The notes beneath the pieces are model-generated. The model was not told the origin of the DNA. It did no database searches and worked only from the letters and a program-made list of their open reading frames with translations. From Dehalococcoidia bacterium (GTDB lineage: Bacteria; Chloroflexota; Dehalococcoidia; Bin125), in the NCBI GenBank assembly GCA_022824765.1, contig JAJDZG010000161.1, forward strand, positions 1-56,002: 56,002 nt of DNA. The letters run 5' to 3'. Shown in pieces: positions 2,115-24,695 of the stretch. Position numbers and translations under genes: made by a program. Position 1 is the first letter of the stretch. The number at the start of each line of letters is the position of its first letter.

Positions 2115-4715
2115 ATGGCTGGGCCACTGGAGGGCGTGACGGTCCTGGACCTGACCAGCGTGGTGGCGGGTCCGTACGCGACCAAACTGCTGGCCGACTA
2201 CGGCGCGCGTGTGATCAAGGCTGAGCCGCGCGGCGGCGATGCTTCACGCCGCTTCGGCCCGTTCCCCGATCGCAAGCCCAATGCTGAGGCCTCGGGCCTC
2301 TTCCTGCACCTGAACACCAACAAGCAGTCGATCGTGCTGGATCCGCTCACCGACGACGGCGCGGCCACGGTGCGGCGCCTGGCGCAACTGGTGGACATCG
2401 TGGTGGAGGACTTGCGGCCAGGCGAGCCGGAGTCGGCCGGCTGGGGCTGGGACGTCTTGCATGCGATCAATCCTAAGCTCGTCCTGTGCTCGATCACGCC
2501 GTTCGGACAGACGGGGCCGTACCGCGACTACCGCGGATCGGAGCTGACGCTGCAAGCGATCGGCGGTCCGCTGCACGCGACCGGCGCGGCTGATCGTGAG
2601 CCGATCAAGATGGCGGGTCACTATGCCAACTATCACGCCGGCGCCACGGCCGCGTTTGCGATCCTGCTCGCCCTGCGACGCGCCGAGTCGGACGGTCAGG
2701 CGGGCGATTGGATTGATATTTCGATCTACCGGTGTCAGGTCGGTTGCCGCGACCGGCGGACGATCCAGCTGGTTGCGGCGGAATACAGCGGCGTTTCGCC
2801 GGGCCGTGCGCATCAGACCCGCCGACAGGTCGGCTTCGGCATTTATCCCTGCGCCGACGGGTTCGTCAACATCATGGGCGCGGGCACGCGGTTGCCGCGT
2901 CTGTTGGAGTGGATCGGACGGGACGATCTGCTGGAGGACGAGTCCTTCCTGTCGGGGCCTCGGCCGGGTTCGGGGTTCGGCGCGAAGGTGGACGGCGCGG
3001 TCGAGGAGTATCTGTCGAGTGTCCGCAAGATCGACGCTGTGGTTGAGGCGCAGGCGGCCGGACTGTTGGCGGGCGCGGTGATGACCGTCGCCGATGTGCT
3101 GGACGATCCGCAGCTTGCGTCGCGCGACTGGTGGCATCGGATCGCCCATTGGCATGGCGACGAGCTGCCGTATCCGGGCTTCCCGTTCCGGATGAGCGAG
3201 TCTGTGCCGGAGCCGCCCAAGCGGTCGCCGCGTCTGGGCGAGCACTCCCGTGTCGTCATGGATCTGACGCCGCCCGATCCGCTGGAAGATCCGCGCCGAC
3301 CGTTGCCGCAGGGTCCGATGAGTTCGTTGGCGCTGCCGCTGGAAGGCGTGCGCGTGGCGGCGATCACCGTGGTCTGGGCGGGTCCGCACGTGGCGCAGCT
3401 GCTGGCCGAGTGGGGCGCGGACGTGGTCAATGTGGAGCCGATGAATCGGATCCAGCCGTACACACGCGGAGCGGAGAACGCGCCGACGAAGGACAACATG
3501 GAGCGGGGCGCGGAGCTGGGCGTTCAGCCGCAGTACCCCCTGTTGGAGCTCGGTCCCGATCCGTGGAACCGAATGGCTTCATTCACCTCACACGCGCGGA
3601 ACAAGCGCTCGATGACCTGCGACATCATGTCGCCCGAGGGCCGCGAGGCGTTTCTCAAGCTGATCGCCGAATGCGATGTCTTGGTGGAGAACAACGTCCC
3701 GTCGACGATCGACAAGGCGGGCATCACCTACGAGGCGCTCAAGGAAGTCAATCCCAACCTGATCATGCTGCGGATGCCGGCGTTCGGTCTGGAGGGTCCA
3801 TACTCCAGCTTCCGAGCGTTCGGGCTGCACGTGGAGGCGATGGTCGGTCACACGCATCTGCGTGGCTACCCCGATCGGGGTCCTGAGGCGATCGGGGAGA
3901 CGCTCGCGAGCGACGGCCTGTCGGGCGTGCAGGGCGCGCTGGCGGTCGTGATGGCGCTGCGCCACCGAGATCGTCGGGGCGTGGGCCAGCAGATTGAGAT
4001 GCCACTCAATGAGGGCTTCATTCCCACGCTGGCCGAGTACCTCTTCGAACACTCGATGAACGGGGAGAACCCGCCTTCGCAGGGCAATCGGCATCAGCAT
4101 CACGCGCCGTTTGGTGTATATCCGTGCCGGGGCGACGACCAATGGATCGCGATCGATATCGCCGATGACGCGGAGTTCGTCGGCCTCTGCGACGCATTGG
4201 CGGCGGGGCCGGGCGAGGCGTCTGTGCGATCGGCGTTGGTTCATGCGCCGCTCGACGGTCGCTTCAGCGACGCGGAGAGCCGCCGCTTCAACGCTGATGT
4301 CCTTGATGCATTGATCAGCCAGGAAACCCAGGTGTGGCACAAGGAAGACCTCTTCCACCGGCTGCAGGCGGCGGGCATCTGCGCGGCGCCGTTGAACGAT
4401 CCGTTTGACGCGCTCTCGGACCGTCATTTGCGAGAGGTCGGGTTCTTCGAGCCGCTGACCATCGAAGGCGTGGGCACGCACCGCTATCCAGGCCTGACCT
4501 TCACGATGACGCGAACGCCCAATCAACTGCGCACGCCGCCGCCGAAACTGGGCGAACACAACCACGAGGTCTACATCGACCTGTTGGGCTACAGAGAGTC
4601 GGAACTGGCGGAGCTCGAAGCCAAGGGGTTGGTCGGAACGCGTTACCCCGATCACCTGCTGCCAGCGCACGTCCGCGAAGCCATCGCACAACACACGAAG
4701 GACACGGAGGATTGA
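2115..4715 (+). CDS. tandem-fused family III (CaiB/BaiF) CoA-transferase, two complete halves in one polypeptide
   Basis: 866-aa ORF. Both halves open with the family signature: LEGVTVLDLTSVVAGPYATKLLADYGARVIKAEP at the N-terminus, and LEGVRVAAITVVWAGPHVAQLLAEWGADVVNVEP from about nt 3340. ATG 2115 follows TTG 2112. Confidence 0.9.
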   Translation: MAGPLEGVTVLDLTSVVAGPYATKLLADYGARVIKAEPRGGDASRRFGPFPDRKPNAEASGLFLHLNTNKQSIVLDPLTDDGAATVRRLAQLVDIVVEDLRPGEPESAGWGWDVLHAINPKLVLCSITPFGQTGPYRDYRGSELTLQAIGGPLHATGAADREPIKMAGHYANYHAGATAAFAILLALRRAESDGQAGDWIDISIYRCQVGCRDRRTIQLVAAEYSGVSPGRAHQTRRQVGFGIYPCADGFVNIMGAGTRLPRLLEWIGRDDLLEDESFLSGPRPGSGFGAKVDGAVEEYLSSVRKIDAVVEAQAAGLLAGAVMTVADVLDDPQLASRDWWHRIAHWHGDELPYPGFPFRMSESVPEPPKRSPRLGEHSRVVMDLTPPDPLEDPRRPLPQGPMSSLALPLEGVRVAAITVVWAGPHVAQLLAEWGADVVNVEPMNRIQPYTRGAENAPTKDNMERGAELGVQPQYPLLELGPDPWNRMASFTSHARNKRSMTCDIMSPEGREAFLKLIAECDVLVENNVPSTIDKAGITYEALKEVNPNLIMLRMPAFGLEGPYSSFRAFGLHVEAMVGHTHLRGYPDRGPEAIGETLASDGLSGVQGALAVVMALRHRDRRGVGQQIEMPLNEGFIPTLAEYLFEHSMNGENPPSQGNRHQHHAPFGVYPCRGDDQWIAIDIADDAEFVGLCDALAAGPGEASVRSALVHAPLDGRFSDAESRRFNADVLDALISQETQVWHKEDLFHRLQAAGICAAPLNDPFDALSDRHLREVGFFEPLTIEGVGTHRYPGLTFTMTRTPNQLRTPPPKLGEHNHEVYIDLLGYRESELAELEAKGLVGTRYPDHLLPAHVREAIAQHTKDTED

Positions 4716-5344: not shown

Positions 5345-6196
5345 ATGCTCAGCGAGTTTGACCGCGCGTTTTTCGACCAGCAGGGCTATCTGGTGGTCAA
5401 GCAGCTGATCCCGCGCGATCTGGTTGACGCGGTGCTCGATGCGATCTGGGAGTTCCTCGAGTTCGACCGCGACGACCCATCGGATTGGTACCGCGAACCG
5501 CACCGGGTCAACGGCATGGTCGAGATGTACCACCACCAGTCGCTCTGGGATGTCCGACAGCACCCGGCGGTCTATGAGCTGTTTCGGGACCTGTTCGGCC
5601 GCGATGATCTGTGGGTGTTCATCGACCGCGCCAATTTGAAGCCGCCACCGAGCGCGGAGCAGCCAAGGTACGACCATCACGGCATGGTGCACTGGGACAT
5701 GGATGTGCGGGAGACGCCGACGCCCTTCCAGGTGCAGGGTGTGCTGTATCTGGTCGATACCCGGCGCGGGGAGGGCGGCTTCCAGTGCGTGCCGGGCGCG
5801 CACCGGCGCGCTGCGCAGATCTCAGAGGGGATCTCGGACGAGGACCTGCGTCACCAGCAGCTGCATGAGCGGTTCTCGTCGACGCTCGGTCCGCCGATCG
5901 AGATTGAGGCGGACGCTGGTGATTTCATTATCTGGCACTCGGCGTTGCCGCATGGCAATAGCCGCAACCGAGCGGACAAGCCGCGCCTGGCGCAGTACGT
6001 GCGTCTCTTCCCTGCTGAGCCCTCGGACGAATCGCTGCGCGAAGCGCGGATCGCTTCCTGGCGGGAGCGAGCGCACCCCGCGTTTCAGAATGCGCGGGCA
6101 TTCCCGGGCGATCCGCGCGGCAAGGAGGCGCAGTCGCCGGCGGCCGAGTTGACGCCGCTCGGCCGCAAGCTGCTTGGACTGGATGACTGGGGTTGA
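5345..6196 (+). CDS. phytanoyl-CoA dioxygenase (PhyH) family Fe(II)/2-oxoglutarate oxygenase
   Basis: The N-terminus FDQQGYLVVKQLIPRDLVD, a HWD metal-binding motif (MVHWDMD) and a distal His (WHSALPHGNS) are typical of the PhyH family. Confidence 0.85.
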   Translation: MLSEFDRAFFDQQGYLVVKQLIPRDLVDAVLDAIWEFLEFDRDDPSDWYREPHRVNGMVEMYHHQSLWDVRQHPAVYELFRDLFGRDDLWVFIDRANLKPPPSAEQPRYDHHGMVHWDMDVRETPTPFQVQGVLYLVDTRRGEGGFQCVPGAHRRAAQISEGISDEDLRHQQLHERFSSTLGPPIEIEADAGDFIIWHSALPHGNSRNRADKPRLAQYVRLFPAEPSDESLREARIASWRERAHPAFQNARAFPGDPRGKEAQSPAAELTPLGRKLLGLDDWG

Positions 6197-7230: not shown

Positions 7231-8310
7231 CTACGTCATCGTCCAGGCGCGCACGGCGGTGATTGGTGCGAGGTTGGTGCGCAGCAACGTCCAACGCTCG
7301 CCGCCGTCGTTGGACGCGAACAGCTGCCCGCCGCTCGATCCCATGTACAGGCCCAGCGGGTCTGCGCCGTCCTGACCCAGCGCCTGCCGATAGATTGCCT
7401 GGTGGAATCCCGCCTGAGGCAGGCCGTCCGACAGTTCGCGGAAGGTCGCGCCGGCATCGGATGTGCGGAATACCTTCAGCGCCCCGCCGCGAGGCATCCG
7501 AGCCTGGTCGAAGTCGAGCGGGACGTAGTAGCACACGTCGGGATCGTTGGGGTCGATTGCCGAGGCGAAGCCGAACTCGCCGGGCAGGTCGGGACCCACC
7601 TCAATCCAGTGCTCGCCGTCGTCGTCGGAGCGATATTGGCCGAAGTGTCCCTGCTGCCACAGTCGGCCGCGCTGGCGTGGATGTGCGTGCAAGGAGTGGA
7701 TGCATGGTGTGACATCTTGCATCTCGGGCGGCATGTTGTCAGCGCGGATGCCGCCGTTGCGCTGATGCCAGGAGTCGCCGCCGTCGTAGGAGACATAGGT
7801 GCCTGTCGCTGAGCCTGCCGCCACGATTCGGTCAGGGTCTGTCTGATCGACGCCCAGGTGGTGAAACATCAGCCCCGCCGCGCCTGGTTCCCATCGGCCG
7901 TTGGTCGGGTGGTTGGTCAGCGCTGATAGCTCTTGCCAGCTTGCTCCATCGTCCGAAGACTTGAACAGCGCGGCGGGCATCGTGCCCGCATAGAGCACAC
8001 CGTCCTCGACGCCTGGCTCGATCGTCCACACACCCTGCAGCGAGCGCTCGCCGTCGCTGAACGCTGGCGTTGAGGCCTCCGTCCAGGAAGCGCCATCGTC
8101 GTCCGAGCGGTGCAGACGCGCACCCCATTGCCAGTGATTGGCGGCACACCAGATTGTCCCGTTGCGCGGGTTGCGCACGGCGTAGTCAATGATCCAACCG
8201 CCAAACAGCAACTCCGACCAGTCCCAGTCGCGGCGTCCGCCGTTGCTGCGGGCGATTAGCAAGCCTTTGCGCGTGCTGACCAGCAGGCCGGCCTCAGTCG
8301 TATTGGTCAC
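7231..8310 (-). CDS. BNR/Asp-box repeat beta-propeller protein (sialidase-fold, no signal peptide)
   Basis: Six Asp-box-like motifs: SDDDGASW twice, SYDGGDSW, SDDDGEHW, TSDAGATF and SNDGGERW. The GTG start overlaps the stop of the upstream gene (GTGA). Confidence 0.8.
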   Translation of the reverse strand: MTNTTEAGLLVSTRKGLLIARSNGGRRDWDWSELLFGGWIIDYAVRNPRNGTIWCAANHWQWGARLHRSDDDGASWTEASTPAFSDGERSLQGVWTIEPGVEDGVLYAGTMPAALFKSSDDGASWQELSALTNHPTNGRWEPGAAGLMFHHLGVDQTDPDRIVAAGSATGTYVSYDGGDSWHQRNGGIRADNMPPEMQDVTPCIHSLHAHPRQRGRLWQQGHFGQYRSDDDGEHWIEVGPDLPGEFGFASAIDPNDPDVCYYVPLDFDQARMPRGGALKVFRTSDAGATFRELSDGLPQAGFHQAIYRQALGQDGADPLGLYMGSSGGQLFASNDGGERWTLLRTNLAPITAVRAWTMT

Positions 8311-10637: not shown

Positions 10638-10889
10638 ATGAGCGAACAGCAGATTTCCATCGAGGTCGTCTACTGCGCCGATTGCGGCTATTGGCCGCGC
10701 ACGTCGTGGATGATTGGCGAGCTGATGACGGACATCCAGCACTTGGTGTCGGAGGTTACGCTCGTGCCCGATACCAAGGGTTTGTTCGAGTGGAAAGTGA
10801 ACGGAGAGCTGGTGTTCAGCAAAGCGGCGATGGGTCGCTTCCCGGAGATGGACGAGTTGCGGGAGCTTGTGTATGGGTTCCTCGAGTAA
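10638..10889 (+). CDS. Rdx (SelW/SelT/SelH-like) thioredoxin-fold protein, CxxC form
   Basis: 83 aa with [20 protein letters not shown] near the N-terminus. It starts 3 nt after the LLM gene. Confidence 0.8.
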
Positions 10890-11828
10890 TCGGCTCTACT
10901 TCGGCGACAACCTGAGCGTGCTGTCGGAACAACAACTCAAACGGTACAAATATGAGGCTGACAATAGTACATACAAGGCCGAGAATCTGACGGCGCCCCG
11001 TTACTCCCCTACCAGAACCGTCGAATGGCGCCGAGTATATCCGGGAGCCCACAGACAATGGCGATTTTCCATCGACGAACTAGAGCGTCTGTACGCCGAG
11101 GGGTGCATTCTTCTCAGGCGCGATGGTCTGCCTCGAAAGGACGGCCTGCAAGAGTACCTGTTCGAAGCGGACGCTCCGGCATTGCAAGACATCTGGACCG
11201 ACGTCGGCTTTGGTCGGACCTCCGACGAGCGTCTGGGATTTCAAACCCAGAAGCCTGAGGCGCTGCTCGAACGCGTTATCAATGCCAGCAGCAATGAGGG
11301 CGATGTCGGGCTCGATCCCTTCTGCGGCTGTGGCACAGCGGTTGCCGTCGCCGAGCGTCTGAACAGAAGTTGGATCGGCATCGATATCACCCACCTCGCA
11401 GTGTCGCTGATGCGCGGCCGGCGACTGGCAAGAAGGCGGCGGATTCAGGGATCGACGGCAACATCAACTTCTTTGACGACAGCTCGGGCAAGGCGAAGCG
11501 GATCATCGTGCAGGTCAAGAGCGGGCACGTCAACCGCGGCATGATCGCGACGCTCAAGGGTGGCATGGATCGCGAGGACGCTGCCGTCGGCATCTTTATC
11601 ACGCTGCAGGAACCGACCGAACCGATGCGGCAGGAGGCGACAGGGGCGGGCTTCTACGAACCGGAGAGTCTGCCCGGTAACCGCTATCCGAAGGTCCAGA
11701 TCCTGACGATCGAGCAGTTGCTGGACGGGGAGCAGCCAGAGTATCCGCGTTTCGCAGCGCCGCAAACGTTCCGCAAGGCGCCCCGCCGTCGGCGCCGTGA
11801 GGGAGCCCAGCGTTCGCTTGACGATTGA
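10867..11828 (+). pseudogene. decayed N6/N4 DNA methyltransferase with C-terminal Mrr-like nuclease-fold domain (internal deletions plus frameshift)
   Basis: It keeps the N-terminal [12 protein letters not shown] and the motif I region ([44 protein letters not shown]). The DPPF/Y catalytic block that normally follows the N-terminus is absent. The C-terminal module ([13 protein letters not shown] ... [10 protein letters not shown] ... AAVGIFITLQEPT ... YPKVQILTIEQLL) sits in a different frame (ORF 11370..11828). Confidence 0.75.
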
Positions 11829-11931
11829 TTCCTCGCGCCTGAGAGTGGAACTCATTTCGCTCGATAGCATCGCTGCGCCCGTGAAGTGATTCGCTAGCCT
11901 GTGGGTGAGCGAAAATGACTGGGGGGACCCG

Positions 11932-12474
11932 ATGCCGGAGACGATTGAGATTCTGAGTCCGCTTGCGCATGTGGCGGTACATGAGGCGACGGCGGCGGCG
12001 CGGCCGATGTCGTTGGAGGGCCTGCGGCCGGGCATCCTTGAGAATCGCAAGGCCAACGCTCGACTGCTGATGGAGACGATGGTCGAACGGCTCGGAGAGC
12101 GGCATCAACTCGGTGAGCTCGTTGTCGGCAGTAAGCCGGTGGGCGGGCCGCCCTCGGACTCGACTATTGATGCGCTGCGCAACGGGGCCGATTTCTTGCT
12201 GATCGGCAGCTGCGATTGAGGGAGCTGCACGACGTGGAGTGTCCACGCCTCGGTCTTGTTTGAAGAGTTGGGAATTCCCACGGTCACGGTCGGTACGTCG
12301 GCCTTCACCGACCTGTTGCAGCTGGAAGCGGAGCAGCGCGGGCTGCCCGAGCTCGATCGTCTGATCGTGCCGCATCCGCTGGGTGGGCTGCGCCCGGAGC
12401 GGGTGCGCGAGCGCGTCGATGACGGCGTCGTCAGTCGGCTTGAGGCGGCGCTGCTTGGGCAGGCGAGCTCGTGA
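11932..12474 (+). CDS. candidate UGSC-motif selenoprotein (in-frame UGA at 12217-12219 read as Sec); otherwise a nonsense-disrupted gene
   Basis: Track ORFs 11905..12219 and 12256..12474 share one frame and are separated by a single TGA. Read-through gives ...DFLLIGSCD-U-GSCTTWSVHASVLFEELGIPTVTV... A hairpin starts 11 nt after the UGA. ATG 11932 is preceded by GGGGGG. Confidence 0.6.
12230..12252 (+). promoter_or_regulatory. putative bacterial SECIS hairpin
   Basis: CGA-CGUGGA / loop GUG / UCCACG-(cc bulge)-UCG. The 6-bp perfect upper stem is 12233-12238 with 12242-12247. The apical loop begins 19 nt after the UGA and starts with G. Confidence 0.5.
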
Positions 12475-13529
12475 CCGCGCCTCGTGGACGCGAGGCGGAG
12501 CGATTCTCGTTGCCGTCGGACCCGTTTGAGTTTTCGCAGGAGTGCCAGCGGCGCGGTTGGTCTGACGGTCTGCCGCTGATTCCGCCGACGGCTGATCGTG
12601 TGGAGGCGATGCTCGCTGCGGGAGATCGGGATGCGATGGATGTGCTGGGCGTGCTGTCGCCACGTCAGGGTGAGGCGACGGTGCAAGCGGTAGCGATCAA
12701 CGCGGTGATGGCGGGCTGCCGGCCGCAGCAGTTCCCGGTGGTGTTAGCCGCGGTGGAAGCGATCTCGCAGCCGCCGCTTAATCTCGATGGGATCAACGCC
12801 ACCACGCATCCTTGCGCGGTGTTCGTGCTGGCGTCGGGGCCGGCTGCTCGGACGGCGGGAGTTCACGGCGGATCTGGCTGTTTCGGCCCAACGTTTCCGT
12901 CGAACGCGACGATCGGTCGCGCGGTGCGTCTGGTGCAGCTCAACATTGCCGGCGCGACGCCGGGTCGGGGCGATCGGGCGACGCAGGGCACGCCGGCCAA
13001 GTTTGCGTTCTGCGCGACCGAGCGCGAGGACGCCTCGCCCTGGCCGCCGTTCCAGACCACGCGCGGTCTCAACGCGGAGGACAGCTGCGTGACGACGTGG
13101 GCGTGTGAGGGTCCGCACAACATCCAGGATCACGGCAGCAACACCGCTACCGGCATCCTGCAGACGGTTGCCGGCGCGATGGGGCAGGCCGGTTCCAACA
13201 ACATCCTCGGCAAGGGCGAGCCGCTGCTGGCGTTTGGTCCGGAGCACGCCGAGACGGTGGCGTCGGAGGGCTGGACTCGGGAGTCAGTGCAGGAGTATCT
13301 GTGGGAACACGCGCGCTATCCGGCGAGCAAGCTCAGCCCTGAATTCCTCGAGTCGGTCAACATCCGCATGGCGGGCGGCATCCTCGATCCGCACGACCCG
13401 GACGAGTGGCTGCCAATCTCCGACAAGCCCGACGAGATTCACATTATCGTCGCCGGCGGACCGGGCAAGCACAGTTGTTGGATGCCAACTTTTGGCGGCA
13501 TGACGCGTCCGGTGACGGTGCAGTTGTGA
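12471..13529 (+). CDS. conserved-looking Cys-rich hypothetical protein, family not recognised
   Basis: 352-aa ORF whose GTG start overlaps the upstream stop (GTGA). It looks soluble. Motifs: GWSDGLPLIPPT, NAVMAGCRP, GGSGCFGP, WACEGPHNIQDHG, GKHSCWMPTFGG. Confidence 0.75.
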   Translation: MTAPRGREAERFSLPSDPFEFSQECQRRGWSDGLPLIPPTADRVEAMLAAGDRDAMDVLGVLSPRQGEATVQAVAINAVMAGCRPQQFPVVLAAVEAISQPPLNLDGINATTHPCAVFVLASGPAARTAGVHGGSGCFGPTFPSNATIGRAVRLVQLNIAGATPGRGDRATQGTPAKFAFCATEREDASPWPPFQTTRGLNAEDSCVTTWACEGPHNIQDHGSNTATGILQTVAGAMGQAGSNNILGKGEPLLAFGPEHAETVASEGWTRESVQEYLWEHARYPASKLSPEFLESVNIRMAGGILDPHDPDEWLPISDKPDEIHIIVAGGPGKHSCWMPTFGGMTRPVTVQL

Positions 13530-15253
13530 CAGATCGGAGAATCCGTCCCGCATGTCTTGGCGATGCGAGCCTTGCGATACATCACGGAAGTCTCGGATGC
13601 TTGGCCTGGCGCATCGGCTTGACTGCCGCGCTGCTGGCAATGTTCGGCGTCCTGAGCGTTGTGATCGCCCAAGATGGCAACGTTGCCACTGCCGAGGTCA
13701 GAATCAACGCTCTCCGTCTCGATGACGGTCGCACCGAGTTCGGTCTGCAACAGCGGCAAACGGGCGGAGAGTGGAGCGATCGACTGCTGCCACGCGGTCG
13801 ATATTTCCCTGCTGACAGCAGTGTTGACCGTTGGTTGAACAGCAGTCCGTTGACGCTTGAAGGCCCCTTACAGGGGGTCGTGGTCAGGATATCTGCACGA
13901 CTCTTGGGCGATGGACGGATCGAGTTTGCGCTCCAGCGACTGAGCGCTCGCGGCCAATGGGGTGAACGGGAGCTGCCTCGTTCTCGATACTCTCCGGCGA
14001 ATCCCAGTGTCGGGCGCTGGATATCAAGTTCGGCGCTCGTGACTCGCGGCGACGGCAACAACGATGAGACCGCGATGCGCCCTGACCCCGAAAACGAAAC
14101 TCCAGCCGAGCCGACGTGCCGAATAGCAGATCATGCTGATCGCGTGGCCGCCGCGACTTTTCAGGTACAGACCGACGACTCGACGGGGACGGCCTTCTAC
14201 ATCGGGCAAAATGAGTGGATCACCAATCACCATGTGGTTGAAGCACAGCGTCAAGTGAACCTGGCTCGCGGAGATTTCACAATCATTGCTCAAGTGATCG
14301 GCAGCTTGCCCGACTACGATCTCGCGCTCCTGCGTGCGCCGGCGCCGCACTCAGTCACGCCGCTGGCGTTTGTCGCCGCCCAGCCAACCCTTGGCGCGAA
14401 CGTCTCGGTGATTGGATTTCCGTCTGGAGTTTCCGGTACTCCATCGCTGACCCGAGGAGCGATATCAAAGCATGCGCCATTCACGCAGTTCAGCGGATTC
14501 ACTGGCCCGGGCGTGATGGTGCAGATCGATGCCGCGCTCAATCCCGGCAACTCGGGCGGTCCGATGGTCAACGATTGCGGCGAGGTGGTGGGCGTTGCGA
14601 CGCAGAAGCTGTTCTCCACGGCTGACGGCCGCGATGTCGAGGGGATCGGGTACGGAGTCTCCGCAGAAACGATCGCGTCTCAGTTGACCGCATTGAGGAC
14701 GACTCCCCATGTCACGACACGCGGGCCAGGGTCTATCGCGACGGTGGGGCCGGGGAGTAGTGAGCGTGCTCGGTATGGGGTGGAGTCCAGCGGCGCGTTC
14801 GGATCGGTTGGGACATGGTTTCACATCGCTGGCGACGATGGATGGTCGTCCGCTCTTGCACTAGATGGCTATAGCAACGATTCACTCTACGACGAAGGCC
14901 GTTTGGTCGTGGCATGCTTCCATGACACCAACAGGATAGGCACATATGTTTCAGCCAGAGATTCGTGGACAGGAAATGAGGCGTTGCTGAGAACTTCGGA
15001 GGACAGTTACGGCGGCTTCTTTCAGGATGACGTTCTGTTGGAGGATGAGGCGTTCTATTGGCCAACATGGTTTGACTATGCCGGAGTTGCTGGTACCAAA
15101 GCCGTGGACTTCGTGCGATTTGCCATGAGCGGCGCAGCAGACGAGGTTCGATTCCTGCTGTCGCGGTGGGGCGAAGACATAGTCGTGTCCTTCGATCTGG
15201 CGGGGATGTTCGAGACGCCTGTCCAGCACCTTCTTGAACTCTGCCTGGACTGA
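13526..15253 (+). CDS. membrane-anchored or secreted trypsin-fold (S1, HtrA-like core) serine protease with N-terminal tandem repeats and an unknown C-terminal domain
   Basis: The catalytic triad appears in order: ITNHHVV, DYDLALLR, NPGNSGGP. A hydrophobic segment LAWRIGLTAALLAMFGVLSVVIA lies near the N-terminus. The start is uncertain: GTG 13526 (GTGA overlap), TTG 13601 or ATG 13640. Confidence 0.8.
   Translation: MTDRRIRPACLGDASLAIHHGSLGCLAWRIGLTAALLAMFGVLSVVIAQDGNVATAEVRINALRLDDGRTEFGLQQRQTGGEWSDRLLPRGRYFPADSSVDRWLNSSPLTLEGPLQGVVVRISARLLGDGRIEFALQRLSARGQWGERELPRSRYSPANPSVGRWISSSALVTRGDGNNDETAMRPDPENETPAEPTCRIADHADRVAAATFQVQTDDSTGTAFYIGQNEWITNHHVVEAQRQVNLARGDFTIIAQVIGSLPDYDLALLRAPAPHSVTPLAFVAAQPTLGANVSVIGFPSGVSGTPSLTRGAISKHAPFTQFSGFTGPGVMVQIDAALNPGNSGGPMVNDCGEVVGVATQKLFSTADGRDVEGIGYGVSAETIASQLTALRTTPHVTTRGPGSIATVGPGSSERARYGVESSGAFGSVGTWFHIAGDDGWSSALALDGYSNDSLYDEGRLVVACFHDTNRIGTYVSARDSWTGNEALLRTSEDSYGGFFQDDVLLEDEAFYWPTWFDYAGVAGTKAVDFVRFAMSGAADEVRFLLSRWGEDIVVSFDLAGMFETPVQHLLELCLD
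13694..14038 (+). repeat. two tandem copies of a ~53-aa protein repeat inside the protease gene
   Basis: EVRINALRLDDGRTEFGLQQRQTGGEWSDRLLPRGRYFPADSSVDRWLNSSPL versus VVRISARLLGDGRIEFALQRLSARGQWGERELPRSRYSPANPSVGRWISSSAL. Confidence 0.8.
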
Positions 15254-15331
15254 GCCAGACGGCTGGAGCGCGGCTTCGGTTGCCCGTTCGACCTAAGTCC
15301 CAGTGGCTTTGCGGAGTGCGACCCGAGGGAA

Positions 15332-15351
15332 GAACAGACTCCGGTCTGTTC
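15332..15351. terminator. hairpin between convergent genes
   Basis: GAACAGAC-tccg-GTCTGTTC, an 8-bp stem. There is no clear U-tract, and it touches the stop codon of the minus-strand gene. Confidence 0.35.
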
Positions 15352-16282
15352 AAACGCCAAACCCTGCCGAGCGCTTGCCTTCGTGGAACTCGGCGAGCTT
15401 GGTGAAGAGGTCGTGGAAGATTGGATCGCGGCGGACGTAGTGCGCCTCGACGAATGGTGCGTGCGCGGCGTCGTCTGGTTGCGGTGTCCATTGCATGTCG
15501 TTGGATAGTGTTGGCCGGATCAGGCTGCGGCGCGGAACCCATGACTCATCGACCAGGAAGCCGGTCGCAGACAGGTCCCAGATCTCCTTCGAACGGCCCG
15601 CAAACTGGTCGTCGTGGTCGCGGAAGATGCCGGCGAGGTACGCGCCGATCTCTCCGTGTGGTCGGACGTAGGCGTCGAGCTCGGCGGTAGTCGCGAGCAG
15701 GTGCGAGGCGGCGCCGTAGCAGGGGATGTGGACCAGCGGTGCGCCTGAGTCGAACACGATCCGCGCGGCAAGTGGGTCCTGGTAGAGGTTGAATTCGCGC
15801 GCGTCGGAGGCGTGCTGCGCCTGTCCGCCGAGCCAGACGATGCAGATGCGCCGGGCGATCTCGGGCGCCTCGATGAGCGCCGAGGCGACGTTGGTGAGCG
15901 CGCCGATTGCCACCACCCATAGCGGTCCCTGCCTTGCCTCTAGCGCTCGTTCGATCAGGTCGCTCGATGCGGCATTTGAGACCGCCTGAGCGTCGTCGGA
16001 GAGGAACCGATCCGCTCCGCGCAGCACTCTGCCTGCGTCGTCGACGCCGACGCGATCCAGCAGGCGATGGATTTCCGCCTCCGACTCGGCGACGCCGTCG
16101 GCGGGATCGAGTCCTGCCCTCGTGAAGAGCGTGGCGTAGATCGCCTCGAGGGCCAGACGGTCTTGCGAGAGCAGCGCGTGGACGACCGCGAACTGGTCGT
16201 CGATCTCGTTGGCCGTGTCGGTGTCGAGGACCATCGGAATGCGCTCAGGCGCGGGCGGGGGTGTCAGGATGTGGTGGTGCAT
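15350..16282 (-). CDS. nucleoside hydrolase (IUNH family)
   Basis: The ATG at 16282 gives MHHHILTPPPAPERIPMVLDTDTANEIDDQFAV, which contains the DxDxxxDD fingerprint. The longer track ORF overlaps the divergent gene. Confidence 0.9.
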   Translation of the reverse strand: MHHHILTPPPAPERIPMVLDTDTANEIDDQFAVVHALLSQDRLALEAIYATLFTRAGLDPADGVAESEAEIHRLLDRVGVDDAGRVLRGADRFLSDDAQAVSNAASSDLIERALEARQGPLWVVAIGALTNVASALIEAPEIARRICIVWLGGQAQHASDAREFNLYQDPLAARIVFDSGAPLVHIPCYGAASHLLATTAELDAYVRPHGEIGAYLAGIFRDHDDQFAGRSKEIWDLSATGFLVDESWVPRRSLIRPTLSNDMQWTPQPDDAAHAPFVEAHYVRRDPIFHDLFTKLAEFHEGKRSAGFGV

Positions 16283-19006: not shown

Positions 19007-19531
19007 ATGAGCGGCGTCCGGCACTTTACGGTGACCACATTTGTGTCAGCGACGTTGCCGATCGGCGGGGCGACGCTGCTGCATTGGCATCGTAAAGTTG
19101 GACTGTGGCTGCCACCCGGCGGGCACATCGAGGTCAACGAAGATCCGATCGAGGCCGCGCGCCGCGAGGCACTGGAAGAGACGGGCATCGCCGTGGAGAT
19201 TCTGCCCACGTCTAATCCGTTTGCCTACGCCGATCCGCCGCAGCTGGCGGCGCCGGTGACGATCATGGTCGAGCCGATCGGCGGCTTCGGCGACGAGGCC
19301 GCGCATCAGCACATCGACTTGATCTACTTCTCGCGGCCGCAGGAGGATGAGTCTCTGGATGCGCCGAGCGGCAGCTGGCGATGGGTCACACGGCGGCAGC
19401 TTGAGGACGACGCGCCGCTGACGCTCGATGACCCGCAGCGACGCATTTCCGCTCGGCTCTCTGAAGATGTGCGCGTACTGGGGCTGGCGGCGATTGACCA
19501 TGTGATGAGTTTCGAGGAGCAGCGACCGTGA
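19007..19531 (+). CDS. NUDIX hydrolase
   Basis: Nudix box GGHIEVNEDPIEAARREALEETGI. Confidence 0.85.
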   Translation: MSGVRHFTVTTFVSATLPIGGATLLHWHRKVGLWLPPGGHIEVNEDPIEAARREALEETGIAVEILPTSNPFAYADPPQLAAPVTIMVEPIGGFGDEAAHQHIDLIYFSRPQEDESLDAPSGSWRWVTRRQLEDDAPLTLDDPQRRISARLSEDVRVLGLAAIDHVMSFEEQRP

Positions 19532-20790
19532 TTTCCGCGCAGATGATTCGCGAACAACCCGACGTCGTGCGCCGCTCGCTGGCCCGCCGAGGCGCCGATG
19601 CGCCGCTGGACGATGCCATTGCGATCGACGAACAACGCCGCGGCGTGCTGGTCGAGCTGGAGGATCTGCGCGCCGCGCGAAACAACGCCGGAAGGGCGAT
19701 CGGCCGGGCCGCAGACAACGACGAGCGGCAACGGTTGATCGGCGCGCAGCGCGAATCTGCGTCCAGGATCGACGAACTCGAGGAGCGTCTGCGCGAACTC
19801 GACGCAGCGCTGACCGGCCTGCTCCAGGAGATTCCCAATATCGTCGGAGATGACACGCCCGACGGCGAAGATGAAGCGGACAATCCGGTCGTCCGCACGT
19901 GGGGTGATCGGCGGGTGTTCGACTTCGAACCGCAGCCTCATTGGGAGATCGGCGAGCGTCTGGGCATCATCGAGATGGGGCGGGCGGCGGCGATGTCTGG
20001 TTCGCGGATGTACGCGTTGCGCGGCGCGGGCGCTCGACTGCAGCGCGCGCTGATCGGTTGGTTTCTGGATGCACACCATGCATCGGGTTACGAGGAGTGC
20101 TACGTGCCGGCGATGGTCCGCGAGGACGCCATGCGCGCGGCTGGTCAATTGCCCAAGTTCCGCGACAATCTCTACCGCGACGAGGAGGAGGACTATTTCT
20201 TCGTCCCCACGGCCGAAGTGCCGCTGACCAACATGCATGCGGACGAGATCGTCGACGAAGACGAGCTGCCGATCCGTTACGCCGCGCACACACCCTGCTT
20301 TCGCCGCGAAAAGACCAGCGCGGGACGCGACGTACGAGGCATCAAACGGGTGCATCAGTTCGAGAAGGTTGAGATGTACCAGTTCACCACGCCCGACGCG
20401 TCTGGGGCGGCGTTGGAGGAGATGCTCGCACAGGCCGAGTCGCTGCTGCAGGGGCTGGAGTTGGAGTACCGGGTGCTGCAGATTTGCAGCGGCGACATCG
20501 GCTTCAACGCGTCGGTCAGCTACGACCTGGAAATCTGGGCTCCCGGCGCGCAGGAATGGCTGGAAGTGTCGAGCGTGTCCAACTGCATCGACTTCCAGGC
20601 GCGCCGCGCCAATATCCGCTACCGCCCGTCGGACGGCAAGGGCACGCGCTTTGTTCACACGCTGAACGGATCGGGGCTGGCGCTGCCGCGAACGATCTGC
20701 GCGCTGCTCGAGCACGGTCAACAGGCCGACGGATCGGTCATCCTGCCAGAAGTGTTGGCGAGTCGGCTGGGTTCCCGTGTCATCGCTTGA
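19528..20790 (+). CDS. serS: serine--tRNA ligase
   Basis: 420 aa with an N-terminal coiled-coil arm and class II core motifs (FRREKTSAGRDVRGIKRVHQFEKVE, TLNGSGLALPRT). The GTG start overlaps the upstream stop (GTGA). Confidence 0.95.
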   Translation: MISAQMIREQPDVVRRSLARRGADAPLDDAIAIDEQRRGVLVELEDLRAARNNAGRAIGRAADNDERQRLIGAQRESASRIDELEERLRELDAALTGLLQEIPNIVGDDTPDGEDEADNPVVRTWGDRRVFDFEPQPHWEIGERLGIIEMGRAAAMSGSRMYALRGAGARLQRALIGWFLDAHHASGYEECYVPAMVREDAMRAAGQLPKFRDNLYRDEEEDYFFVPTAEVPLTNMHADEIVDEDELPIRYAAHTPCFRREKTSAGRDVRGIKRVHQFEKVEMYQFTTPDASGAALEEMLAQAESLLQGLELEYRVLQICSGDIGFNASVSYDLEIWAPGAQEWLEVSSVSNCIDFQARRANIRYRPSDGKGTRFVHTLNGSGLALPRTICALLEHGQQADGSVILPEVLASRLGSRVIA

Positions 20791-21616
20791 CCCCTATCGC
20801 GCGGCCAATCTGGCGCGCTGGGACGAGTCCGTTGCGGTCCATGCCGCGTCTGAGTTCTACGGCGTCGACCGGTTTCTCGCCGGCGAATCGAAGCTGCTGC
20901 CGCTCGATCTGGATGAAGTGGACGACGTGCGGGGCCAGTCGCTGTTGCATTTGCAGTGCCATTTTGGCTTGGACACGCTGTCGTGGGCTCGCGAAGGCGC
21001 CGACGTGGTGGGGGTCGACTTCTCGCCGGCTGCGATCTCGACGGCTCGTGATCTCGCAGCACGCGCCGGCGTCTCTGCCCAGTTCGTGGAGTCGGAGCTC
21101 TACGCCGCTCCCCAGGCGCTGGCCGACCGCTTGGCGAGCTTCGACATCGTGTATGCCAATCTCGGCGCGATTTGCTGGTTGCCGGACATTCGCGGCTGGG
21201 CCGAGGTCTGCGCTGGATTTCTGAAACCGGGCGGCCAGCTCTACGTGCGAGATGTCCACCCGGTGGCGAACACGCTCGACGACGAGGCGCCGGCCGGCGA
21301 GCTGCGCATCGCCTTCCCCGCCTTCGAGACTGAAGAACCGCTGCAATGGAGCGGAGACGCCGACTACGCCGACGCGTCAGCGCGGATGGTGAACCAGACG
21401 TCGTACGAATGGAATCACAGTCTGGGTGAGATCGTGACGGCGGTCGTCGAGGCTGGTTGCCGCATCGACTTCCTGCACGAGCAGGAGTACACGGTCTACC
21501 GCGCGCTGCCGTGGTTGGTTGAGGGTCCGCGCGGGATCTTCCGCCTGCCCGATCGCGATGGACTGCCTGATCGACGCCTGCCGCTGATGTTCACGCTCTC
21601 GGCGCGGAAGACATAA
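20777..21616 (+). CDS. class I SAM-dependent methyltransferase
   Basis: Motif I-like LLHLQCHFGLDTLSWAREGADVVGVDFSPAAI. It overlaps the serS end by 14 nt. Confidence 0.8.
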   Translation: MSSLDPYRAANLARWDESVAVHAASEFYGVDRFLAGESKLLPLDLDEVDDVRGQSLLHLQCHFGLDTLSWAREGADVVGVDFSPAAISTARDLAARAGVSAQFVESELYAAPQALADRLASFDIVYANLGAICWLPDIRGWAEVCAGFLKPGGQLYVRDVHPVANTLDDEAPAGELRIAFPAFETEEPLQWSGDADYADASARMVNQTSYEWNHSLGEIVTAVVEAGCRIDFLHEQEYTVYRALPWLVEGPRGIFRLPDRDGLPDRRLPLMFTLSARKT

Positions 21617-23191: not shown

Positions 23192-23281
23192 TGGCGGAGG
23201 GGGAGGGATTCGAACCCCCGAGACGCTTGCACGCCTAACGGTTTTCAAGACCGCCGCCTTCGTCCGCTCGGCCACCCCTCC
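23192..23281 (-). tRNA. tRNA-Ser (anticodon UGA), CCA encoded
   Basis: The reverse complement folds as acceptor GGAGGGG/CCCCTCC, anticodon loop CUUGAAA, a long variable arm and T-loop GGGGGTTCGAATCCCTC. Confidence 0.9.
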
Positions 23282-24608: not shown

Positions 24609-24695
24609 TGGTGCCGGGAGAGGGAATCGAACCCCCACGGCCCGAAGGCCAGCGGATTTTAAGTCCGCCGCGTCTACCACTTTCGCCATCCCGGC
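24609..24695 (-). tRNA. tRNA-Leu (anticodon UAA), CCA encoded
   Basis: The reverse complement is GCCGGGATGGCGAAAGTGGTAGACGC..., with anticodon stem GCGGA/TCCGC, loop CUUAAAA and a long variable arm. Confidence 0.9.

What the first reader, a model, noticed from the sequence alone, without database searches (positions are those of the whole stretch)
11905..12474. In-frame UGA plus downstream hairpin: two predicted ORFs are probably one UGSC-motif selenoprotein
Track ORFs 11905..12219 and 12256..12474 are in the same frame. A single TGA (12217-12219) separates them, and the 36 nt between contain no other stop. Read-through gives ...ADFLLIGSCD-U-GSCTTWSVHASVLFEELGIPTVTVGT...

The tetrapeptide U-G-S-C matches the name-giving motif of what NCBI calls the 'UGSC family (seleno)protein'. 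That is recalled from memory and not searched. Cys residues flank the UGA position at -2 and +3, as expected for a redox centre.

A hairpin (12230..12252) has a 6-bp perfect upper stem CGUGGA/UCCACG, a loop GUG, and a lower CGA/UCG stem with a CC bulge. It begins 11 nt after the UGA, which is the geometry expected for a bacterial SECIS element. The second ORF has no ATG or RBS of its own; the track starts it at TTG.

The later segment (IPTVTV ... VPHPLGG) reminds me of GrdB/PrdB-type reductase selenoproteins, but this is an unverified impression. Standard gene callers would report two fragments or a pseudogene.
Basis: partly seen in the sequence, partly recalled or inferred. Interest (0 to 1): 0.75.

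Follow-up and report, generated by a model that had tools for sequence, protein, structure and literature searches.

The report
UGSC-family selenoprotein gene with SECIS
The two "fragments" are one gene for a small redox protein whose in-frame UGA is read as selenocysteine with help from an RNA hairpin just downstream; it is a real but ordinary new member of an already catalogued selenoprotein family whose function is still unknown.

Summary
ORFs 11905..12219 and 12256..12474 are one gene. Its true start is probably ATG 11932, giving 180 aa with Sec at residue 96.

- **Family:** the joined product matches Pfam PF24696 "UGSC family" across the UGA (E 5.8e-41).
- **Sec/Cys column:** the UGA column is Cys in 147 of 151 full-length homologs.
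- **Conserved TGA:** a TGA-specific pattern found at least 120 genomic loci in many phyla, and all were confirmed as family members.
- **Translation past the UGA:** the post-UGA segment is under the same purifying selection as the pre-UGA segment (dN/dS 0.05 vs 0.04).
- **Hairpin:** it is not exceptional thermodynamically in this one sequence, but it is a family-wide SECIS. The stem is paired in 96.5% of cells. Synonymous-site covariation gives G-C 102, G-U 20, A-U 5, A·C 0. Ser+7 is AGU in 115/115 Sec forms and AGC in 43/43 Cys forms.
- **Partner gene:** the downstream 352-aa gene (12471..13529) is fused or adjacent in 104 of 114 Sec loci.

Not shown: Sec machinery in this genome, since none lies in the window. 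The GrdB/PrdB impression is not supported. The modelled fold is flavodoxin-like, not thioredoxin-like. Verdict: new member of a known kind, modest interest.

The parts
11932..12474 (+). UGSC-family selenoprotein gene. 180 aa with Sec (U) at residue 96, motif D-U96-G-S-C99, ordinary TGA stop at 12472-12474.
   Evidence: Pfam PF24696 at E 5.8e-41 spanning the UGA. NCBIfam NF041046 at 106 bits. Start ATG 11932 inferred from ortholog starts and the onset of synteny. dN/dS against L046 is 0.042 before the UGA and 0.051 after it.
11921..11927 (+). Shine-Dalgarno-like GGGGGGA, 4 nt upstream of ATG 11932.
   Evidence: Read directly from the sequence. L046 has GGGAGAG in the equivalent place. Its function is inferred.
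12217..12219 (+). In-frame UGA, read as selenocysteine.
   Evidence: The same column is TGA in L001, L002, L003, L046 and L205, and in at least 120 loci from named genomes. It is Cys in 147 of 151 full-length homologs. TGA is otherwise the commonest stop codon in the window, 26 of 46 genes.
12230..12252 (+). SECIS hairpin inside the coding sequence. Core stem 12233-12238 pairs with 12242-12247 (CGUGGA/UCCACG). The apical loop is GUG at 12239-12241. The lower part is either CGA/UCG with a CC bulge (local MFE) or the family register G12231-C12249 with an A12232·C12248 mismatch.
   Evidence: One search gives -9.6 against -7.4 kcal/mol for the two registers. The sequence is identical in L046 and L205 despite dS above 1 in the flanks.
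12471..13529 (+). Partner gene, 352 aa, uncharacterised. Its GTG start overlaps the UGSC stop (GTGA), which suggests translational coupling.
   Evidence: It is 33-48% identical (E down to 1e-95) to the C-terminal domain of fused UGSC proteins. It is fused or adjacent downstream in 104 of 114 Sec-form loci and 42 of 58 Cys-form loci. At least 7944 homologs exist, all unnamed and without a Pfam family. The model is confident (pLDDT 91.7) but has no PDB fold match.
10638..10889 (+). SelW/SelT/SelH (Rdx) family protein in its Cys form (C13-A-D-C16). It is a lineage-specific upstream neighbour of the UGSC gene.
   Evidence: Pfam PF10262 and TIGR02174. It lies about 27 bp upstream of the UGSC start in L046 and L205. 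It occurs upstream only in the Dehalococcoidia/Tepidiformaceae loci, 6 of 127.

Best explanation
Positions 11932..12474 form a single gene for a 180-aa UGSC-family selenoprotein.

**Recoding (inferred).** During translation the UGA at 12217-12219 is not read as a stop. The mRNA hairpin just downstream (12230..12252, apical loop GUG) acts as a bacterial SECIS. It recruits SelB·GTP·Sec-tRNA(Sec) to the ribosome, and selenocysteine is inserted at residue 96.

**Dual coding (shown).** The hairpin is built from the codons of the conserved peptide C-T-T-W-S-V-H-A. These bases therefore serve the protein and the RNA at the same time.

**Protein (modelled and inferred).** The protein is predicted to be a flavodoxin-like alpha/beta domain, with U96-G-S-C99 at the N-terminus of a helix. 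It most likely cycles between selenol/thiol and selenenylsulfide as a redox centre.

**Partner.** It works with the product of the overlapping downstream gene 12471..13529, which is fused to the UGSC domain in many other bacteria.

**Shown:** the single reading frame, family membership, the Sec/Cys column, translation of the post-UGA part over evolutionary time, a UGA-specific conserved and covarying hairpin, and the gene-fusion link to the partner.

**Inferred:** SelB-dependent Sec insertion in this particular organism, the redox chemistry, and the physical partnership.
For: **One gene, known family.**
- One frame with a single TGA.
- Pfam UGSC match across the TGA at E 5.8e-41.
- Cys at the UGA column in 147 of 151 homologs.

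**Conserved TGA.**
- The TGA-requiring pattern found at least 120 loci in named genomes of many phyla.
- 127 of 127 matches were confirmed as family members by HMM, E <= 1e-37.
- The nearest relatives L046, L001 and L205 keep the TGA and an identical hairpin.

**Translation past the UGA.**
- Post-UGA dN/dS is 0.051 against 0.042 pre-UGA, with dS above 1.

**Hairpin.**
- The core stem is paired in 127 of 127 sequences.
- The synonymous-site pair shows G-C 102, G-U 20, A-U 5, A·C 0.
- Ser+7 is AGU in 115 of 115 cases. Ser+2, just outside the hairpin, is AGU in 2 of 116.
- The formal count gives 96.5% of cells paired against 18-50% when slid, with 0 of 500 shuffles reaching it.

**Cys-form control, same peptide pattern.**
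- Ser+7 is AGC in 43 of 43 cases, with no AGU.
- The third base of codon +8 is C in only 34 of 73 cases.
- Pair (17,29) forms in 38 of 73 cases.
- Mean MFE is -7.9 against -12.65 kcal/mol for the Sec forms.

**Context.**
- TGA is the normal major stop codon here.
- The lineage is Dehalococcoidia, a class that includes very selenoprotein-rich genomes (PMC13326102).
- The family is described as a major predicted selenoprotein family (PMC2398784).
Against: - Sec decoding in this organism is therefore inferred.
- The hairpin is not thermodynamically exceptional on its own.
- In this clade the hairpin is weaker than the family consensus. It has an A·C mismatch or CC bulge, and folds at -9.6 against about -12.5 kcal/mol.
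- The protein scores below the NCBIfam equivalog cutoff, 106 against 125 bits.
- It lacks the near-invariant Asp after the motif, having Ala at residue 106.
- The neighbouring Rdx protein is in its Cys form, so it adds no second witness for Sec use.
- No member of the family has been characterised biochemically according to the reviews read, so the redox mechanism is an inference.
Confidence: 0.9

Rival explanations
1. Pseudogene. A Cys codon (TGC/TGT) recently mutated to TGA, so the gene is broken and the downstream piece is decaying.
For: Gene callers split the gene, and database entries are truncated at this point. A roughly 1-kb insertion carrying degraded methyltransferase ORFs sits just upstream, so the locus has suffered rearrangements.
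Against: The TGA is conserved at this codon in relatives with dS above 1 and in at least 120 genomes from many phyla. Post-UGA dN/dS is 0.05. No frameshifts or further stops occur. The UGA-specific hairpin is conserved.
Confidence: 0.02
2. The UGA is read through, but not as selenocysteine. For example, Cys or Trp could be inserted by near-cognate decoding, or Cys via the Sec pathway. This organism may have lost or may not use selenium.
For: Sec machinery was not found in the window and cannot be checked genome-wide. The clade's hairpin is weakened relative to the family consensus. The adjacent Rdx protein is a Cys form.
Against: The loop GU and the stem remain strictly conserved in the clade: window, L046 and L205 are identical across the hairpin despite saturated synonymous divergence elsewhere. 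That is expected only if SelB still binds. Dehalococcoidia include selenoprotein-rich genomes. A lineage without Sec decoding would be expected to fix TGC/TGT, as the many Cys-form homologs did.
Confidence: 0.06
3. Two separate products. A 95-aa N-terminal protein ends at the UGA, and an independent C-terminal protein is initiated internally, for example at TTG 12256. The hairpin would be only a by-product of the conserved peptide.
For: The ORF list gives a TTG start at 12256. The single-sequence fold is not significant.
Against: One Pfam domain and one compact modelled fold span the junction, and the redox motif would be cut in two. Cys-form homologs are continuous. No Shine-Dalgarno or conserved start lies in 12220..12255. 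The codons between the UGA and the TTG are among the most conserved in the protein. Cys forms encoding the same peptide do not keep the hairpin.
Confidence: 0.02

Closest known systems
UGSC-containing selenoprotein family (Zhang & Gladyshev metagenome surveys; Pfam PF24696; NCBIfam NF041046 'UGSC family (seleno)protein')
   Same: - Same domain, matched above the Pfam threshold.
- Same U-G-S-C motif in the same column.
- Same in-frame TGA and the same SECIS position.
- Same frequent association with a second conserved domain. A UGSC fusion to a domain called 'Unknown_1' is described in PMC2398784.
   Different: - Scores below the NCBIfam equivalog cutoff, 106 against 125 bits.
- Has Thr/Ala where most members have Ser/Asp at motif positions +5 and +10. 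This turns the U-A pair of the SECIS stem into an A·C mismatch.
- Comes from a Dehalococcoidia lineage and has a SelW/Rdx gene upstream.
- I did not see the sequence of 'Unknown_1', so its identity with the partner domain here is inferred.
Bacterial SECIS elements of the E. coli fdhF type (SelB-binding hairpin immediately 3' of the UGA)
   Same: - A hairpin inside the ORF that starts 10-11 nt after the UGA. The 11-nt spacing rule for fdhF is from my own knowledge of the literature.
- Conserved G and U in the apical loop.
- The stem is maintained by compensatory changes.
   Different: - The family consensus is a perfect 8-bp stem with a GUN triloop and no bulged U.
- In the window the stem is 6 bp plus a CC bulge or A·C mismatch.
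- No Rfam family reported it.
- SelB binding was not tested.
SelW/SelT/SelH (Rdx) family, encoded just upstream (10638..10889)
   Same: A small putative redox protein with a CxxC/CxxU motif. It is co-located with the UGSC gene in this lineage.
   Different: It belongs to a different family. Here it is the Cys form (CADC), and it is not a general partner of UGSC genes, occurring upstream in only 6 of 127 loci.
Flavodoxin-like fold redox proteins (FMN-dependent azoreductases, FMN reductases, flavodoxin domains)
   Same: The best structural matches to the UGSC-domain model have a five-stranded parallel alpha/beta/alpha sandwich.
   Different: Only TM 0.42-0.48 and 10-15% identity. There is no evidence of flavin binding, and the active site is a U/C-x-x-C motif at a helix N-terminus. 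This is a fold-level resemblance, not family membership.

Membership tests
UGSC family (Pfam PF24696) | Whole-domain HMM match above the gathering score | tested here: met
   140.9 bits against a cutoff of 25, E 5.8e-41. Residues 15-174 of the joined product match profile positions 1-162 of 172, as a single stretch across the UGA.
UGSC family (NCBIfam NF041046, equivalog) | Score at or above the curated equivalog cutoff (125 bits) | tested here: not met
   106.3 bits, E 1.3e-30. The protein is clearly homologous but below the strict naming threshold, so an automatic pipeline relying on this model might not rescue it.
UGSC family | U/C-G-S-C motif in the conserved active-site column | tested here: met
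   The window reads D-U-G-S-C. In that column, 147 of 151 full-length homologs have Cys, and Gly, Ser and Cys follow.
Bacterial selenoprotein gene (SelB/SECIS recoding) | In-frame UGA conserved among orthologs and aligned with Cys in homologs | tested here: met
   TGA is present in L001, L002, L003, L046 and L205 and in at least 120 loci from named genomes, all confirmed by HMM.
Bacterial selenoprotein gene (SelB/SECIS recoding) | Sequence 3' of the UGA is translated in the same frame | tested here: met
   dN/dS is 0.051 (L046) and 0.094 (L001) for the post-UGA part, with dS of about 1. GC3 is continuous across the UGA.
Bacterial selenoprotein gene (SelB/SECIS recoding) | SECIS hairpin about 11 nt after the UGA with G/U in the apical loop, conserved by covariation and specific to the UGA forms | tested here: met
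   96.5% of cells paired, three pairs with double-sided changes, loop GUN in 127 of 127; the Cys forms lack it. The single-sequence thermodynamic test is negative.
Bacterial selenoprotein gene (SelB/SECIS recoding) | selA, selB, selD and tRNA-Sec present in the same genome | not testable with these tools
   None lies in the 56-kb window, and the rest of the genome is not available. Lineage-level support only: Dehalococcoidia MAGs with 46-49 selenoproteins (PMC13326102).
Bacterial selenoprotein gene (SelB/SECIS recoding) | Selenium actually incorporated at the UGA position | not testable with these tools
   Needs 75Se labelling or mass spectrometry.
GrdB/PrdB reductase selenoprotein B (Pfam PF07355) | Sequence match to the GRDB family | tested here: not met
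   At E <= 0.01 the only hits are PF24696 (Pfam) and NF041046 (NCBIfam). No such protein appears in the PDB profile search.
GrdB/PrdB reductase selenoprotein B (Pfam PF07355) | Shared fold | tested here: inconclusive
   No Grd/Prd chain is among the top 50 Foldseek matches. I do not know whether a GrdB or PrdB structure is in the library.
Thioredoxin-fold oxidoreductases (suggested for this family in PMC2398784) | Thioredoxin fold | tested here: not met
   The AlphaFold2 model of a 46%-identical Cys homolog (pLDDT 95.6) is a five-stranded parallel alpha/beta fold. Its top PDB matches are flavodoxin-like proteins, and no thioredoxin-fold protein is among the top 50. The model is of a homolog, not of the window protein itself.

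The most novel reading that the evidence does not exclude
The UGSC domain and the roughly 350-aa partner protein (12471..13529) could form an obligate, very widespread two-component seleno/thiol enzyme of a kind not yet described. The evidence for a functional pair is that the partner is fused or adjacent in 91% of Sec-form loci and has at least 7944 homologs. It has no Pfam family, no name, and no solved structure with a similar fold (best TM 0.26 for a pLDDT-92 model). It carries nearly invariant Cys83, Cys181, His113, His216 and His259. The Sec-bearing domain is flavodoxin-like rather than thioredoxin-like as proposed in the literature.

A smaller twist concerns this Dehalococcoidia clade. 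Base-pair changes in the SECIS stem (U-A to G-C to A·C) coincide with replacement of an otherwise near-invariant Asp by Ala. RNA-level constraint may therefore have shaped the active-site neighbourhood.
Probability: 0.45. Interest if true: 0.5.

Novelty: new member of a known kind. Interest (0 to 1): 0.25.

Why it matters
**Annotation.** This locus, and its orthologs in public databases, are called as a 95-aa stub plus an orphan fragment. They should be joined into one 180-aa selenoprotein. The NCBIfam model alone would not rescue it, because the score is below its cutoff.

**Biology.** The finding adds little that specialists do not already expect. UGSC proteins are among the most abundant predicted selenoproteins in aquatic metagenomes. 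Three by-products may be useful:
- A clean demonstration that the family's SECIS is written into the C-T-S-W-S-V-H-D codons. AGU against AGC at one serine separates the Sec forms from the Cys forms perfectly.
- Quantification of the tight link to an uncharacterised partner domain whose confident model has no similar solved structure in the PDB.
- A structural model that contradicts the assumed thioredoxin fold.

These results give concrete handles for finding out what this abundant family does.

Tried and rejected
- **Single-sequence thermodynamics.** Not significant, so this argument was dropped in favour of comparative evidence.
- **Rfam scan of the window.** Only two tRNAs were found and no SECIS family.
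- **Sec machinery in the window.** ARAGORN found no tRNA-Sec. About 55 ORFs scanned with NCBIfam gave no selA, selB or selD. serS and tRNA-Ser(UGA) are present but are universal, so they are not evidence.
- **Other in-frame TGA candidates in the window.** The other seven same-frame ORF pairs have no redox context and are ordinary neighbouring genes or antisense frames.
- **Exact look-up of the window's partner protein.** It is not on record, so the source contig could not be identified. The lineage was inferred from syntenic relatives instead.
- **First word-indexed homolog search.** It returned only 8 hits. The exhaustive profile search was needed.
- **PDB searches.** Sequence-profile searches for both proteins found nothing significant. 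The fold search for the partner gave only TM 0.26 matches, which I regard as meaningless.
- **GrdB/PrdB idea.** No support.
- **Genetic-code reassignment of TGA.** Rejected, because TGA ends 26 of 46 genes, including this one.
- **Promoter and terminator scan, and repeat search around the insertions.** Nothing informative.
Full report
**Observation.** The sequence is as described. ORFs 11905..12219 and 12256..12474 share a frame and are separated by one TGA (12217-12219). The 36 nt between them have no stop. Read-through gives ...LIGSCD-U-GSCTTWSVHASV.... GC at third codon positions stays high across the junction. The hairpin at 12230..12252 (CGA-CGUGGA-GUG-UCCACG-CC-UCG) is present and is the local minimum-energy structure at -9.6 kcal/mol. 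Taken alone it is not remarkable for 65%-GC DNA. Z-scores against dinucleotide shuffles are +0.57 and -0.39, so single-sequence folding does not show the hairpin to be real.

**Family membership and the Sec/Cys column.** With U replaced by C, the joined product gives one continuous match to Pfam PF24696 "UGSC family" (140.9 bits, E 5.8e-41). It scores 106 bits on NCBIfam NF041046 "UGSC family (seleno)protein", below that model's 125-bit equivalog cutoff. An exhaustive profile search found 2172 representative clusters. In an alignment of the best 150 plus the earlier hits, the UGA column is Cys in 147 of 151 full-length proteins, within the motif D-C-G-S-C. The closest database proteins (P0001, P0002, P0003, P0027) all stop at ...GSCD or ...GSSD. 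Gene callers therefore truncated them at the same codon.

**The TGA is conserved, not a recent lesion.** The DNA of four related metagenomic loci has TGA in the same column. A degenerate pattern that requires TGA at that codon, in the family's peptide context, was run against one genome per species. All 127 occurrences, including the window, were confirmed as family members by HMM at E <= 1e-37.

The window is syntenic with two relatives at about 75-83% nucleotide identity. One is a Dehalococcoidia MAG chromosome (L046, OY730488.1). The other is a 442-kb contig (L205). Both have the TGA and an identical hairpin. Against L046, dN/dS is 0.042 for the part before the UGA and 0.051 for the part after it, with dS above 1. 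The post-UGA segment has therefore been translated in this frame throughout the divergence of these lineages. TGA is otherwise the commonest ordinary stop in the window, 26 of 46 genes, so the genetic code has not been reassigned.

**The start codon.** Nucleotide similarity to relatives begins at 11931-11932. Orthologs start M-[PT]-[EQ]-T-I-E-[IV]-L-S-P. The gene most likely starts at ATG 11932, behind GGGGGGA at 11921-11927. That gives 180 aa with Sec at residue 96.

**The hairpin is a family-wide SECIS specific to the UGA forms.** In the 127 Sec-form genes, the bases from +14 to +32 (counting the U of UGA as 0) form an 8-bp stem and a GUN triloop. They come from the codons for T-S-W-S-[VIFL]-H-D.

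- The six inner pairs form in 115-127 of the 127 sequences, five of them in all 127.
- The pair between the third base of Ser+5 and the third base of His+9 is G-C 102, G-U 20, A-U 5, and never A·C.
- Pair (15,31) is U-A in most sequences and G-C in four.
- Ser+7 is AGU in 115 of 115 cases (the other 12 have UGU). Ser+2, just outside the hairpin, uses AGU in 2 of 116.
- The third base of codon +8 is C in 127 of 127.

The formal count on 120 distinct sequences gives 96.5% of cells paired, against 18-50% for slid registers. There are 15 double-sided changes on three pairs, and 0 of 500 shuffles reach the observed values.

The decisive control is the same peptide pattern with TGY (Cys) instead of TGA. 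In 73 confirmed Cys-form genes from metagenomes:

- Ser+7 is AGC in 43 of 43 cases, with no AGU.
- The third base of codon +8 is C in only 34 of 73.
- Pair (17,29) forms in 38 of 73.
- Mean folding energy of the 29-nt segment is -7.9 against -12.65 kcal/mol, although the Cys set is more GC-rich.

The structure therefore follows the UGA and not the peptide. From my own knowledge of the E. coli fdhF SECIS work, a stem starting 10-11 nt after the UGA with G and U in the apical loop is what SelB recognition requires.

**The window's own version of the hairpin.** The window and its nearest relatives (L001, L002/L003, L046, L054, L089, L205) read ACG ACG ... CAC GCC where most members read ACG UCG ... 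CAC GAC. This makes pair (15,31) an A·C mismatch. It also replaces the near-invariant Asp (145 of 151 homologs) with Ala. Related Tepidiformaceae and Dehalococcoidia loci (L024, L097, L108) have G-C at that pair (Ala/Ala), which is a compensatory state. The six-pair core and the GUG loop are unchanged.

**The protein.** No solved structure is detectably related by sequence; the best E-value is 0.07. An AlphaFold2 model of the closest full-length Cys homolog (P0011, 46% identical) is very confident (pLDDT 95.6). It shows a five-stranded parallel alpha/beta fold with the C/U-G-S-C motif at the N-terminus of the helix after strand 3. Its best PDB matches are flavodoxin-like proteins such as azoreductases, FMN reductases and flavodoxin domains, at TM 0.42-0.48. 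This does not support the thioredoxin-like fold suggested in the 2008 survey. A U-x-x-C motif at a helix N-terminus is typical of selenol/thiol redox centres. The redox role is an inference, and the reviews read here state that the family's function is uncharacterised.

**The partner gene.** The 352-aa gene at 12471..13529 starts with a GTG that overlaps the UGSC stop (GTGA).

- It is 33-48% identical (E down to 1e-95) to the C-terminal domain of 530-575-aa proteins whose N-terminus is a UGSC domain.
- Among Sec-form loci with enough downstream sequence, it is fused in 41 and adjacent downstream in 63 of 114. Among Cys-form loci it is present in 42 of 58.
- It has at least 7944 homologs, all unnamed and without a Pfam family.
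- It has nearly invariant Cys83, Cys181 and several His residues.
- Its confident model (pLDDT 91.7) has no meaningful PDB match; the best TM is 0.26.

This is probably the "Unknown_1" domain reported as a UGSC fusion in the GOS survey, but I could not see that sequence. The functional unit is therefore UGSC plus partner.

**Context and lineage.** The window is ordinary chromosomal DNA, carrying the nuo operon, dnaX, recO, serS, der, argF and comEC. In relatives the order is LLM/F420-type oxidoreductase, then a SelW/Rdx-like CxxC protein, then UGSC about 27 bp downstream, then the partner. The Rdx neighbour is specific to this lineage, occurring in 6 of 127 loci. Named homologs of the partner protein and the syntenic MAGs are all Dehalococcoidia. 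A 2026 selenoprotein database lists Dehalococcoidia MAGs with 46-49 selenoproteins. No Sec machinery lies in the window. This is the one defining feature I could not test.

**Verdict.** The UGSC-containing selenoprotein family has been known from computational surveys since the mid-2000s and has Pfam and NCBIfam models, so this is a new member of a known kind. The interest lies in correcting the annotation and in the side results: the AGU/AGC signature of the SECIS, the tight link to a partner domain with no similar solved structure, and the flavodoxin-like rather than thioredoxin-like fold.

Noticed in passing
window 10866..11931: A roughly 1.07-kb insertion lies between the Rdx gene and the UGSC gene. 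It is absent from the syntenic relatives L046 and L205, where the two genes are about 27 bp apart. It carries two overlapping ORFs in different frames (10867..11544 and 11370..11828). The first has a partial adenine-specific DNA methyltransferase (CcrM-like) match, so this looks like a degraded methyltransferase gene. L001 has a different insertion at the same spot (a 112-aa ORF plus a 499-aa ORF with a weak Terminase_3 hit). This intergenic site may be an insertion hotspot.
   Followed up: partly
window 13531..15357 (ORF 13406..15253): A second lineage-specific insertion of about 1.8 kb lies directly after the partner gene. It is absent from L046 and L205. It encodes a roughly 600-aa protein with a trypsin-like serine protease domain (HtrA/MarP-like, residues about 240-440). 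The listed ORF start overlaps the end of the partner gene, so the true start is probably later.
   Followed up: partly
window 12246..12249 and codon 12247-12249 (Ala106): In this Dehalococcoidia clade the near-invariant Asp following the C/U-G-S-C-x-x-W-S-V-H motif is Ala, and Ser+5 is Thr. The same two nucleotide positions form SECIS pair (15,31). That pair is U-A in most taxa, G-C in Tepidiformaceae relatives, and A·C here. Constraints from the RNA structure and from the protein sequence appear entangled.
   Followed up: partly
window 12471..13529 and homologs: The partner protein family is very large (at least 7944 homologs) but has no Pfam or NCBIfam model and no name. Its confident AlphaFold2 model has no PDB fold match; the best TM of 0.26 is to class I fumarate hydratase. 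It is a candidate for a new domain family.
   Followed up: partly
L077 (Chloroflexi MAG JACPQD010000044.1), TGA codons at about 3740-3742, 5434-5436 and 7503-7505 on the minus strand: Three tandem Sec-form UGSC-partner fusion genes sit within one 8-kb locus, each with its own TGA and hairpin. This is a local paralog expansion of the module.
   Followed up: no
L205 9352..10030: In this close relative about 650 bp separate the UGSC stop from the partner start, including a called antisense 90-aa ORF. In the window the two genes overlap (GTGA). The coupling between the two genes is therefore not strictly conserved, even among near relatives.
   Followed up: no
L010 (MAG labelled Candidatus Nitrosocosmicus, DASRWT010000003.1): A typical bacterial-type Sec-form UGSC gene, with the SECIS inside the ORF, lies on a contig binned as an ammonia-oxidising archaeon. 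Archaeal SECIS elements normally lie in untranslated regions, so this is more likely a binning contaminant than an archaeal selenoprotein. Several 'Bordetella parapertussis' MAG labels among freshwater bins (L026, L070, L080, L093) also look like mis-assigned taxonomy.
   Followed up: no
window 10638..10889: The SelW/SelT/SelH (Rdx) family protein immediately upstream is the Cys form (C-A-D-C) in the window, L001 and L046. The genome carries a Sec form of one redox protein next to a Cys form of a family that is often a selenoprotein elsewhere.
   Followed up: partly
window 19528..20790, 23192..23281, 24609..24695: serS (seryl-tRNA synthetase), tRNA-Ser(UGA anticodon) and tRNA-Leu(UAA) lie 7-12 kb downstream. 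SerS also charges tRNA-Sec, but it is universal, so this is not evidence of Sec machinery.
   Followed up: yes
window 20777..21616: A 279-aa methyltransferase has a weak domain-level match (E 6.7e-9, 35 bits against a cutoff of 380) to the NCBIfam model for the selenoprotein MduS. The score is far below threshold and no in-frame TGA was seen. It is almost certainly just the shared methyltransferase domain.
   Followed up: no
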